From: a virus
Lineage: Duplodnaviria > Heunggongvirae > Uroviricota > Caudoviricetes
DNA length: 64,000 nt
IMG/VR virus record: IMGVR_UViG_2565956624_000008
Strand: one strand, 5' to 3'
Under the pieces are notes generated by a model. That model was not told the DNA's origin. It worked only from the letters and a program-made list of their open reading frames with translations, and did no database searches. How positions within the stretch are numbered: the first letter of the stretch is position 1; the number at the start of each line of letters is the position of its first letter. The translations under genes and the position numbers were made by a program. Below, piece after piece: positions 4,044 to 6,268 of the stretch.

Positions 4044-6058
4044 AAGAGCTGTGCTATGGATCTGTTTGCAGTGGAATTGAAGCCGCGAGTATTGCCTGGG
4101 AACCGTTGGGTATGCGTCCGGCGTGGTTTGCTGAAATCGAGCCTTTTCCATCTGCCGTTCTTGCGCACCGCTGGCCCCATGTCGCCAACCTTGGCGACAT
4201 GACAAAACTTGCCAAAAAAGTCCTGGCTGGGGAAATCGAATCCCCTGATGTGCTCGTCGGGGGTACGCCTTGTCAGGCATTCAGTATCGCGGGCTTACGT
4301 GGTGGGCTTGATGATGAACGCGGCGCGCTAACTTTGAAGTATGTGGAGCTTGCAAATGCAATTGACGACAAACGGTCTGAGTCCTTCCTCAAACCGACAG
4401 TTATCGTCTGGGAAAATGTCCCAGGAGTCCTGTCATCGGCAGATAACGCCTTCGGATGTTTCCTTGCCGGATTGGCTGGAGAAGATGCGCCATTTGAACC
4501 AGGTGATCGACCTGAATCAGGAAAAAGTAACGCGTTCTGGCGGTGGGATGGCAAAACCGGTTGCCATGCTCCAAAGTGGCCGCAGTGTGGTTGTATTTAT
4601 GGACCGCAGCGAAAGGTGGCCTGGAGAATCCTTGATGCCCAATACTTCGGAGTGGCACAACGACGCCGACGCGTGTTTGTTGTCGCAAGTGCTCGAACAG
4701 ACCTCGATCCCGCAACGGTACTTTTTGAGTTCGAAGGCGTGCGCCGGAATATTGCGCCGAGCAGAGGCGAGGGGAAGGAAACTACCAGATATACTTCAAA
4801 CATCGCTATCAGATCTTGCGATGATACAAACATAGTTGCCATGGCACATGGGCAAGGAGGGGCTGAGATAAAAACCGATAATTCGGCACCAACTTTGACA
4901 TGTAACCATGAAGCACCAATTGTATTGCTCGTCGACGGTAGAATGCGCCGTCTTATCCCTGTCGAATGTGAAAGGCTGCAAGGTTTTCCTGATGGACATA
5001 CATTGATCCCTACGGAAAAGCGTAAAAAAGTTTCTTCAGATGAACTGGCATACCTTCGCAAAAACTATCCTGATTTGAGCGAAGAAGAGGCCGCGATGCT
5101 TGCAGCTGACGGACCGCGTTACAAAGCGATCGGCAATAGTATGGCGATACCAGTAATGCGCTGGATTGGCGATCGGATTGCCAAGGCTGCATGTCGGCAG
5201 AAGGAAGGGAGTGAAACAAAAGAGCGAAAAGTTAAACCAGCGGCAGAATTCGAACGGTCCATATTCAAATGGGCTGGTGGAAAATTTGGTGTTCTGGAAC
5301 AAATCTTTCGCTATTTGCCAGAAGGGAAGCGCCTGATTGAGCCTTTCGTTGGTGGCGGAGCTGTCTTCATGAATGCCGGATACCAGGAAAATCTGCTAAA
5401 TGATGTGAATGCTGACCTGATTAACTTTTACAAGACTCTGCAACGCGAGGCGCATTCACTTATCACTCTGGCACATCGTTTCTTCCAGGACTACAACACG
5501 CAGGAAGGATACCTGGCAGTACGGAATGCGTTTAACAAACAAGTCTATGATGATTTACATCGCGCAGCGGCGTTTTTGTTCCTGAACCGACATTGTTTTA
5601 ACGGATTGACGCGTTACAACCAAGCCGGTGAGTTCAATGTCGGTTATGGGAAGTATAAAACTCCGTATTTCCCATTGCAGGAGATGGAAGCCTTCCTTGG
5701 TGCGGAAGGGCGTTCTGAGTTTGTATGTGGTGATTTTGCTGCGGTGATTGAAGCTGCCGGAGAAGGAGATGTCATCTTTTGCGATCCGCCGTATGAACCG
5801 CTCCCAAATACAGAGGGATTCACGAACTATTCCGGTCATGACTTTAAGTTTGAAGAGCAAAAACGCCTGGCGTCTCTGTTGACGGATGCTCATCGCCGAG
5901 GTGCAAAGGTTCTCATTACTAACAGTGGCGCGCCAAACATCAGAGAACTTTATCAGGACAGTGGCTTCAGAGTGGAACCTCTTTTTGCCAGACGTTCTGT
6001 GTCTTGTAAGGGGGACACTCGAGGTGTTGCTCATGACGTTATAGCAATATTGCTCTAA
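4040..6058 (+). CDS. dmt: bifunctional DNA methyltransferase: N-terminal C5-cytosine MTase domain fused to C-terminal Dam-like N6-adenine MTase domain, 672 aa
   Basis: [25 protein letters not shown] motifs; then KWAGGK and FCDPPYEP. Confidence 0.85.
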
Positions 6059-6076
6059 TAAATTTATTAGTGTAAT
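6049..6076. promoter_or_regulatory. perfect C1 operator ATTGCTCTAATAAATTT (6049-6065) overlapping the dmt stop codon, with a partly overlapping inverted second copy (6060-6076)
   Basis: 17/17 consensus match; palindromic core CTAATAAATTTATTAG. Confidence 0.7.
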
Positions 6077-6242
6077 ATCGCCTCACTGAATCGTGATTTA
6101 TAGAGCGATTTAGCTGTTAGCCGCGACAGGCGCGGCGGCAAGTATGGCGGGGTAGTGACTCCTTCCCCCTCATGACGCCGAGTTGCCAGGTTGACCATAC
6201 GCCTAAGTGGCAACACCGAAGTGCGTTACGAGCTTCCAGTTT

Positions 6243-6268
6243 GCCCATCTTCGGGTGGGCGTTTTTTT
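6243..6268 (+). terminator. Rho-independent terminator (GCCCA-tcttcgg-TGGGC followed by T7)
   Basis: Stem-loop plus T-run read directly. Confidence 0.65.

What the first reader, a model, noticed from the sequence alone, without database searches (positions are those of the whole stretch)
6049..6268. C1-operator-gated small transcript candidate ending in a strong terminator
A perfect C1 operator overlaps the dmt stop codon and is followed by a -10-like TGTAATAT, then about 170 nt of GC-rich sequence without a credible ORF, ending in a canonical terminator at 6243-6268. This reads as a repressor-controlled small RNA, or a leader for the tRNA/ban operon.
Basis: partly seen in the sequence, partly recalled or inferred. 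Interest (0 to 1): 0.5.

Follow-up and report, generated by a model that had tools for sequence, protein, structure and literature searches.

The report
P1 ban-operon leader: DicF-locus-type RNA
This is the already-annotated repressor-controlled promoter and leader of the phage P1 ban operon. Its roughly 184-base terminated transcript carries a conserved, pseudoknotted RNA domain shared with the precursor of the E. coli prophage small RNA DicF, but it does not carry DicF itself.

Summary
A perfect C1 operator (6049-6065) overlaps the dmt stop codon. A second inverted operator, a sigma-70 promoter, about 180 nt with no credible ORF, and a strong terminator (6243-6268) follow.

It is not new as a locus. 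The P1 GenBank record annotates the same positions as the bivalent operator Op72ab/Obanab, promoters P1ban/P2ban and a 'dicF-like region'.

What I add:
- The similarity is not to DicF. The Rfam DicF model finds nothing here.
- The similarity is to a ~100-nt structured domain (6119-6217) that lies immediately upstream of dicF in lambdoid prophages. This domain is present in 4430 of 5426 complete E. coli genomes and matched no Rfam family in the two copies scanned (window, Qin).
- Its fold has three nested helices (the middle one in two segments, P2a and P2b) plus a pseudoknot. Compensatory changes between the P1, P7 and lambdoid alleles support the fold.
- In 91 of 91 distinct contexts it is followed within 41-81 nt by an intrinsic terminator carrying one of at least seven different sRNA-like modules.
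- In Qin, domain plus DicF is the published stable 190-nt 'long DicF' RNA. In P1 the counterpart (~184 nt) would be made directly from Pban.

Best reading: a C1-repressed, DicF-precursor-type RNA, with terminator read-through feeding the tRNA/tci/ban genes. The function of the domain is unknown. A role in controlling read-through is not excluded.

The parts
6049..6065 (+). C1 operator Op72a (Obana), perfect 17-bp consensus; overlaps the dmt stop codon
   Evidence: 0 mismatches; the P1 record annotates it at the aligned position
6060..6076 (-). C1 operator Op72b (Obanb), 15/17, inverted and overlapping Op72a by 6 bp, making a bivalent operator
   Evidence: palindrome I2
6050..6078 (+). Promoter P1ban: -35 TTGCTC 6050-6055, 17-nt spacer, -10 TAATAT 6073-6078. 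The predicted P2ban lies at 6033-6064
   Evidence: P1 annotation transferred through alignment; sequence read. The strict consensus scan did not list it
6085..6268 (+). Inferred primary transcript from Pban to the terminator, about 184 nt
   Evidence: Inference from -10 position and U-tract. Size matches the 190-nt long DicF of Qin (PMC10448788)
6086..6113 (+). Predicted 5' hairpin (CUGAAUCG.../...CGAUUUAG) at the start of the transcript
   Evidence: MFE and centroid fold; sequence nearly invariant in P1-like alleles. Prediction only
6119..6217 (+). Conserved structured RNA domain. Helix P1 6121-6125/6131-6135; P2a 6136-6139/6177-6180; P2b 6149-6152/6165-6168; P3 6182-6188/6208-6214; pseudoknot 6142-6147 (GUAUGG) with 6195-6200 (CCAUAC)
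   Evidence: Covariance model R1 scores 95.4 bits, E 1e-18, as the single hit in the window. 96% of cells are paired against 34-57% when partners are slid, with compensatory changes in P2a, P2b, P3 and the pseudoknot
6218..6242 (+). P1-type 3' module: hairpin GAAG-UGCGUUACGAG-CUUC (6218-6236) and U-rich linker CAGUUU (6237-6242). It sits where DicF sits in Qin but is unrelated in sequence
   Evidence: (fold); no DicF model hit
6243..6268 (+). Intrinsic terminator: 7-bp G+C-rich stem, UUCG loop, G, then U7
   Evidence: identical in P1, P7, JL22, SJ46 and even in phage D6, which lacks the domain

Best explanation
The stretch is the known C1-repressed control region (bivalent operator Op72ab over promoter Pban) of a P1/P7-like phage-plasmid, together with the first ~184 nt it transcribes.

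That RNA has three parts:
1. A 5' hairpin.
2. A ~100-nt pseudoknotted domain homologous to the 5' part of the 190-nt 'long DicF' RNA of lambdoid prophages.
3. A P1-specific hairpin with a U-rich stretch and a strong intrinsic terminator, at the position DicF occupies in Qin.

Proposed working:
- In the lysogen, C1 (with Bof/Lxc, from established P1 knowledge) shuts Pban, and also Pdmt upstream.
- On derepression, polymerases from Pban, and read-in from dmt, either stop at 6268 or read through. Stopping releases a discrete DicF-precursor-type small RNA. Reading through transcribes the tRNA genes, tciABC and ban.
- The terminated RNA most likely acts like the other members of this locus family, as a precursor or carrier of an Hfq-type regulatory 3' module.

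What is shown: the operator, promoter, terminator and their identity with the P1 annotation; the homology, fold and covariation of the domain; its invariable linkage to a terminator.

What is inferred: the start site, accumulation of the ~184-nt species, any trans-acting role, and what the conserved domain contributes.
For: Identity with P1:
- Searches show identity with the P1 features Obanab, P1ban/P2ban and the 'dicF-like region'.
- operator statistics.
- terminator.

Homology to the dicF locus:
- window 6121-6218 is ~82% identical to the sequence between ydfC and dicF in Qin. It occurs in 4430/5426 E. coli genomes.
- the DicF model hits Qin (76.7 bits) but not the window.

Structure:
- 96% of cells are paired. 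Independent compensatory changes occur in P3 (U-A/C-G), the pseudoknot (U-A/C-G in the P1 allele), P2a (U-A/C-G in the P7 allele) and P2b (at least 6 stem versions).
- the model finds one copy per locus.

Architecture:
- 91/91 contexts have a terminator 41-81 nt downstream, with at least 7 module types.
- of the 11 loci chosen for variant 3' modules, only one scores as DicF.

Experimental parallel:
- (PMC10448788): Qin yields a stable 190-nt DicF species ending at the terminator, plus both terminated and read-through operon transcripts.
- counting 190 nt back from the annotated dicF 3' end spans the whole domain.

Conservation:
- the element is conserved in 476 P1-like plasmids of Escherichia, Salmonella, Klebsiella and Shigella.
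Against: - No transcript mapping for P1 was found, so the ~184-nt species and its start site are unproven.
- The P1 3' module is not DicF.
- It shows no better complementarity to the ftsZ translation start than shuffled controls.
- It has no convincing target in the 64-kb window.
- Its first hairpin is not clearly kept in two variant alleles.
- P1 lacks the AU-rich linker where RNase E frees DicF in Qin, so processing may differ.
- The covariation rests on few independent events among closely related sequences.
Confidence: 0.6

Rival explanations
1. The conserved domain is a cis-acting regulator of elongation. It would be either a put-like RNA that makes RNA polymerase terminator-resistant, or a riboswitch-like sensor that sets the termination/read-through ratio at the terminator that always follows it. 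In this reading the small RNA is a by-product. The real function is gating ban/tRNA expression in P1 and kil/dicB/recombination genes in lambdoid prophages.
For: - The domain is always followed by an intrinsic terminator (91/91), sometimes two in tandem before kil.
- The genes downstream have no other annotated promoter in P1.
- Loop and junction nucleotides are invariant across unrelated phage types, which points to a host partner or a ligand.
- No N-type antiterminator is recognisable among the small proteins between the early promoter and the domain.
- HK022 putL has a similar promoter-proximal position.
- In Qin both terminated and read-through transcripts exist.
Against: - The model of the domain finds nothing at HK022 putL/putR, even at E<=10.
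- The fold (three helices plus a pseudoknot) differs from the two-stem put RNA.
- I found no conserved alternative pairing between the domain and the terminators (inspection).
- Each phage has one copy only, with no second copy on the rightward operon.
- Phage D6 keeps the identical terminator and the downstream tRNA/tci genes without the domain.
- No Rfam riboswitch matches.
Confidence: 0.2
2. The terminator is chiefly the end of the uhr-hrdC-dmt operon and an insulator in front of the ban operon. The domain would then be a 3'-UTR processing or stability element, a folded block that defines RNase III/RNase E cuts or protects the mRNA end. It would have no regulatory role in trans or on elongation.
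For: - The terminator is the first one after dmt, whose operon is driven by Pdmt/Op68.
- The sequences flanking the Qin module can pair in the MFE fold.
- The P1 leader downstream is a mosaic of similar stem-closed modules.
Against: - A dedicated, perfectly conserved C1-controlled promoter sits directly in front of the domain in all P1-like alleles.
- The strict conservation of unpaired nucleotides exceeds what a mere stability block needs.
- P1 copies lack the outer helix P0 that closes the lambdoid copies.
Confidence: 0.15
3. The stretch encodes a small protein: the 47-aa + strand ORF 6172-6315, or the 49/111-aa - strand ORFs that some phage records annotate as hypothetical proteins.
For: JL22 and SJ46 annotate differing hypothetical proteins here. 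ORFs exist mechanically.
Against: - No Pfam match at significance.
- Annotations disagree between records, and the curated P1 record has none.
- The + strand ORF runs through the terminator.
- The substitution pattern is RNA-like, with paired compensatory changes and indels in a hairpin loop.
- The homologous lambdoid sequence is in a different ORF context.
Confidence: 0.03

Closest known systems
Phage P1 Op72ab (Obanab) / P1ban-P2ban / 'dicF-like region' as annotated in AF234172 and NC_005856
   Same: Same locus. The window is a P7-type allele of it: 99% identical to P7 and ~91% to P1 over 6066-6300. Operators, promoter hexamers and terminator are identical.
   Different: - The window's allele differs from P1 in helix P2b, one pseudoknot pair and one P2a pair, and all the changes are compensatory.
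- The record's label suggests DicF. The homology is in fact to the domain upstream of DicF. The annotated 102 bp span P3, the 3' module and the terminator.
190-nt 'long DicF' RNA of the dicBF operon of prophage Qin (Faubladier 1990, as cited in PMC5069750; PMC10448788)
   Same: - A repressor-controlled early operon.
- The same ~100-nt domain (R1 scores 125.7 bits in Qin and 95.4 bits here).
- A short 3' module ending in an intrinsic terminator.
- Overall length of ~185-190 nt.
- Genes beyond it are reached by read-through.
   Different: - In Qin the 5' end is cut by RNase III from a polycistronic RNA, and an outer helix P0 closes the domain. In P1 a promoter sits ~35 nt upstream and P0 is missing.
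- The 3' module is DicF in Qin and an unrelated sequence in P1. P1 also lacks the AU-rich RNase E linker.
DicF sRNA (Rfam RF00039)
   Same: Position relative to the domain, Rho-independent terminator with a U-tail, and a U-rich stretch (AGUUU) before or within the terminator hairpin.
   Different: No sequence or structure match (no hit at E<=1, against 76.7 bits for Qin). There is no above-chance complementarity to ftsZ.
HK022 put RNAs (putL/putR)
   Same: A promoter-proximal, structured, cis-transcribed RNA placed ahead of terminators in an early phage operon. No dedicated protein factor is evident.
   Different: Different fold and sequence. The model R1 finds nothing in the HK022 put regions. 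There is one copy per phage rather than two. The activity is untested.
Promoter-proximal terminated transcripts that double as sRNAs (lambda 6S / StxS from pR'-tR'; own knowledge)
   Same: A short transcript from a phage promoter to a strong terminator, with downstream genes expressed only by read-through.
   Different: Those depend on Q protein loaded at the promoter. No Q-like factor or Q-binding element is known for Pban.

Membership tests
P1 C1-controlled operator/promoter (Op72ab/Pban) | 17-bp asymmetric C1 operator consensus ATTGCTCTAATAAATTT | tested here: met
   17/17 at 6049-6065; 14 sites in the window against 0.24 expected
P1 C1-controlled operator/promoter (Op72ab/Pban) | Second, inverted, overlapping operator (bivalent site) and sigma-70 hexamers inside the operator pair, at the position annotated in P1 | tested here: met
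   15/17 at 6060-6076 (-); -35 TTGCTC, 17-nt spacer, -10 TAATAT aligned to P1ban
P1 C1-controlled operator/promoter (Op72ab/Pban) | Binding of C1 and repression of transcription | not testable with these tools
   Rests on the P1 record's annotation and older literature not held in the library
DicF sRNA (RF00039) | Score at or above the family's gathering threshold (48 bits) | tested here: not met
   No DicF hit at E<=1 in 5500-9500. Positive control Qin scores 76.7 bits
DicF sRNA (RF00039) | Antisense complementarity to the ftsZ translation initiation region | tested here: inconclusive
   Crude duplex energies: the P1 module is no better than shuffles (0.71), and DicF itself is only weakly separated (0.083)
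Long-DicF-type RNA (conserved domain + 3' module + terminator) | The conserved ~100-nt domain with helices P1, P2a/b, P3 and the GYAUGG/CCAURC pseudoknot | tested here: met
   R1 95.4 bits, E 1e-18; pair counts and compensatory changes
Long-DicF-type RNA (conserved domain + 3' module + terminator) | Intrinsic terminator within ~40-80 nt after P3 | tested here: met
   91/91 contexts including the window
Long-DicF-type RNA (conserved domain + 3' module + terminator) | Accumulation of a ~190-nt RNA and RNase III/RNase E processing | not testable with these tools
   Shown for Qin only (PMC10448788)
HK022 put-type antiterminator RNA | Put consensus sequence and two-stem fold | tested here: not met
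   No R1 hit in L005/L006, which hold putL and putR, at E<=10. The sequences compared by eye share only a GCGCGGCGG 9-mer
HK022 put-type antiterminator RNA | Terminator read-through that depends on the RNA and on the beta' zinc-binding domain | not testable with these tools
   Needs transcription assays
Transcription-terminating riboswitch | Conserved aptamer followed by a terminator, with a mutually exclusive antiterminator pairing | tested here: inconclusive
   The aptamer-like domain plus terminator is present. No conserved competing helix was found by inspection, and no Rfam riboswitch matches

The most novel reading that the evidence does not exclude
The ~100-nt pseudoknotted domain is an undescribed class of host-machinery-binding RNA. 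It would be a processive antiterminator in the manner of put, or a factor- or ligand-sensing attenuator. It would decide whether polymerase stops at the sRNA terminator or goes on, so coupling sRNA output to early-gene expression. In P1 this would affect the tRNA genes, tci and the Ban helicase. In lambdoid prophages found in most E. coli genomes it would affect kil/dicB, exo, xis and int.
Probability: 0.17. Interest if true: 0.75.

Novelty: new member of a known kind. Interest (0 to 1): 0.4.

Why it matters
For P1 biology the result is mostly tidy-up. The finding re-discovers Op72/Pban and the 'dicF-like region', and shows the label is misleading.

The wider point concerns the domain itself:
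- It is present in about four fifths of complete E. coli genomes and in every P1-like plasmid examined.
- In Qin it is the 5' part of the 190-nt DicF species.
- It has a conserved pseudoknotted fold, no Rfam family and no assigned function.
- It carries interchangeable sRNA-like 3' modules.

P1 offers the simplest test bed. Here the RNA starts at a clean, temperature-switchable (c1.100) promoter, with no need for RNase III processing.

Tried and rejected
- Rfam at permissive E-values gave nothing on the domain. It gave only chance-level tmRNA-like hits at 6232-6400.
- The genome-contig scan with a 15-base pattern was a mistake. The pattern was too short for 596 Gb, nearly all 120 rows were chance hits, and only E. 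albertii was real.
- RNAalifold on the trimmed alignment proposed a GGCG/UUGY helix that competes with P1 and P3. I rejected it because the covarying column tracks its P3 partner. The run did reveal helix P2a.
- An extension of the pseudoknot (UAAG/CUUA) was not supported by the variants (inspection).
- A tRNA-like reading of the four-way junction was dropped because P1 copies lack the outer helix.
- boxA/boxB (N-type nut site) resemblance was judged absent by inspection.
- Target searches were uninformative or at chance: the ftsZ start region, and 11-mers at 25775 and 51143 that lie inside ORFs.
- Literature searches for P1 ban-operon transcripts, for 'dicF-like', or for the domain's sequence found nothing usable.
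- A partner for the AAGCGCACGCGG element (7678-7689) upstream in P1, as in the predicted Qin flanking stalk, was not found.

Full report
**What the window is.**
Window 5900-7200 is 97-98% identical to P1-like phages (JL22, RCS47, P1). Over 6066-6300 it is 99% identical to P7 and ~91% to P1. The 672-aa ORF ending at 6058 is dmt. tRNA-Asn and tRNA-Thr lie at 6734-6887, and a third tRNA at 8888-8963.

**Check of the observation.**
- The 17-bp C1 operator consensus is matched perfectly at 6049-6065 and spans the dmt stop codon.
- A second operator (15/17) lies inverted at 6060-6076.
- The window holds 14 operator-like sites with at most 3 mismatches, against 0.24 expected.
- The -10-like TGTAATAT is at 6071-6078.
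- The terminator, GCCCAUC-UUCG-GGUGGGC then G and U7 (6243-6268), tops the terminator list (8 pairs, 5 G-C) for 5500-9500.
- ORFs between are short, cross the terminator or lie on the opposite strand, and have no Pfam match at significance.

**It is an annotated locus.**
The curated P1 record places the following at the aligned positions:
- The bivalent operator Obanab (former Op72ab), which 'controls expression of ban'.
- The promoter P1ban, with -35 equivalent to 6050-6055 and -10 to 6073-6078.
- A predicted promoter P2ban.
- A 102-bp 'dicF-like region', equivalent to about 6176-6277.

After these come the tRNA genes, plp/upl on the other strand, tciABC, a third tRNA and ban. No other + strand promoter is annotated before ban. 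Upstream, Odmt (Op68)/Pdmt drives uhr-hrdC-dmt into this region. The window has the matching operator at 2773-2789. With the -10 at 6073-6078, transcription should start near 6085. The terminated product would be about 184 nt. This is an inference.

**What 'dicF-like' really is.**
- The Rfam DicF model finds nothing in 5500-9500, even at E<=1. It scores 76.7 bits on the Qin prophage.
- Instead, window 6121-6218 is ~82% identical to the sequence immediately upstream of dicF, between ydfC and dicF.
- That sequence is present in 4430 of 5426 complete E. coli genomes, with a median of two copies, and in many lambdoid phages, always once per phage.
- In MG1655 it lies at 1,649,260-1,649,357 and carries no annotation. 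dicF is at 1,649,382-1,649,434.

**Structure.**
I aligned 75 distinct copies from IMG/VR prophages, phage records and the window. The alignments support these elements:
- Helix P1: CCGCG/CGCGG.
- Helix P2a: CGGY/RCCG.
- A variable hairpin P2b.
- Helix P3: GUUGYCA/UGRCAAC.
- A pseudoknot between GYAUGG, in the P2 internal loop, and CCAURC, in the P3 loop.
- An outer helix P0, found in lambdoid copies only.

In both alignments 96% of cells form standard pairs, against 34-57% when partners are slid by 1-3 columns. No shuffle of 500 reaches the observed pairing percentage or covariation score.

The three lineages differ by separate compensatory changes:
- P3: U-A in lambdoid copies, C-G in P1 and P7.
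- Pseudoknot: U-A, but C-G in the P1 allele.
- P2a: U-A, but C-G in the P7 allele, which is the window's allele.
- P2b: CGGGG/CCCCG against CUGGG/CCCAG, with at least four further stem versions that all fold.

The events are few and the sequences are closely related. The fold is therefore well supported but not proven. Many unpaired nucleotides are invariant.

A covariance model of the nested helices finds exactly one copy in the 64-kb window (6119-6217, 95.4 bits). It also finds one copy in each related locus tested.

**Modular architecture.**
All 91 distinct downstream contexts carry an intrinsic terminator 41-81 nt after P3. The stretch between the domain and the U-tract falls into at least seven unrelated types. 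Of eleven representative loci with variant modules, only one scores as DicF. One phage has the module duplicated in tandem ahead of kil. The P1-type module is GAAG-UGCGUUACGAG-CUUC, then CAGUUU, then the UUCG terminator.

**Link to experiment.**
In Qin, Northern blots show two species. One is a 53-nt DicF whose 5' end is made by RNase E. The other is a stable 190-nt species whose 5' end is made by RNase III. Both a ydfABC-dicF transcript ending at the dicF terminator and a longer read-through transcript were seen (PMC10448788; PMC5069750).

Counting 190 nt back from the annotated dicF 3' end lands a few bases before helix P0. The 190-nt RNA is therefore the conserved domain plus DicF. The P1 transcript from Pban to its terminator has the same layout and nearly the same length. 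It would be produced by initiation instead of RNase III cutting. The sequences flanking the Qin module can pair in the MFE fold, which fits an RNase III stalk. P1 has no such upstream partner.

**Mechanism proposed.**
- C1 bound to Op72ab silences Pban in the lysogen.
- On derepression, a fraction of polymerases stop at 6268. This releases a ~184-nt RNA of the long-DicF type.
- The rest read through to express the tRNA genes, tciABC and ban.
- Read-in from the dmt operon can feed the same terminator.
- By analogy with DicF, the 3' module is the likeliest trans-acting part. It has a terminator with seven U and an adjacent U-rich stretch.

I could not find a target. Complementarity to the ftsZ start region is no better than for shuffled sequences. 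The two 11-mer matches inside the window lie within ORFs and are at chance level. The role of the conserved domain is open.

**Rival: control of read-through.**
For this reading:
- The domain is invariably linked to a terminator.
- Its single-stranded bases are strictly conserved across unrelated phages.
- No recognisable N-type antiterminator lies upstream.
- Ban lies 3 kb beyond a strong terminator.

Together these keep a put-like or riboswitch-like role alive.

Against this reading:
- The model finds nothing at HK022 putL/putR.
- The fold differs from put.
- I found no conserved competing helix.
- There is one copy per phage.
- Phage D6 keeps the same terminator and downstream genes without the domain or a C1 operator.

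**Conservation in P1-like elements.**
476 plasmids of Escherichia, Salmonella, Klebsiella and Shigella carry the full element. There are two main alleles, P7-type and P1-type, plus rarer ones. The rarer alleles differ in the first hairpin of the 3' module.

**Verdict.**
This is a real feature that is already annotated as a locus. The refinement is that it belongs to the long-DicF class of prophage RNAs through a shared, structurally conserved, functionally unassigned domain, and not through DicF.

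Noticed in passing
window 7662-7782: Sub-threshold match to Rfam STnc100 (37.8 bits, gathering 47, E 7e-6), just upstream of tciA. The same family matches the stretch between dicF and dicB in Qin (L003 3671-3880, 34.4 bits). The P1 ban leader therefore looks like the Qin dicF-dicB non-coding block split by ~1.4 kb carrying tRNA genes and plp/upl.
   Followed up: partly
window 6449-6464, 6888-6975, 7103-7172, 7588-7665: Repeated modules closed by the inverted repeat CACAACAGGTAAGGG ... CCCTTACCGTTGTGATGA. The one at 6888-6975 encloses a tRNA T-arm-like GGTTCGAATCCC, possibly a decayed tRNA. The same CACAAC/GTTGTG ends form helix P0 of the lambdoid domain copies. These may be processing stems that delimit exchangeable RNA cassettes.
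   Followed up: partly
window 6964-7106: About 140 bp that are 98-99% identical to unannotated sequence in lambdoid and Stx-converting phages (mEp460, IME207, 1720a-02, Stx2c phages). This points to recent exchange of non-coding modules between P1-like and lambdoid phages.
   Followed up: no
L127 (phage D6) 2230-2530: D6 shares the terminator and everything downstream with P1. It has a different upstream non-coding sequence, no C1-type operator, and a tRNA-Ser in place of part of the cluster.
   Followed up: partly
L250 (record named Actinobacillus phage vB_Apl-pPE4) 2989-3260: The domain lies ~230 nt after a DicA-type repressor gene with no + strand ORF annotated between. It is followed by two tandem copies of a non-DicF sRNA-like module, each with a terminator, then the STnc100-like element and kil. 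The phage looks like an enterobacterial lambdoid despite its host label.
   Followed up: no
window 2773-2789: C1 operator with one mismatch at the position of P1 Odmt (Op68)/Pdmt, upstream of uhr-hrdC-dmt. Twelve further operator-like sites are listed.
   Followed up: partly
L129 (Ro157c2YLVW) 2166-2412; window 8888-8963: The tRNA cluster varies among P1-like phages. Ro157c2YLVW has an extra tRNA-Tyr between Asn and Thr. The window's third tRNA has a CAT anticodon, which ARAGORN calls Met and P1 annotates as Ile2.
   Followed up: no
L016 4648-4799: One IMG/VR P7-type copy has a G-run and ~23 extra bases inserted in the P2b hairpin. This is either tolerated expansion of the variable hairpin or an assembly artefact.
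   Followed up: no
L017, L058, L090: Several lambdoid loci that carry the domain also carry isrK and C4 antisense RNA (a P1-type immI module) within a few kb.
   Followed up: no
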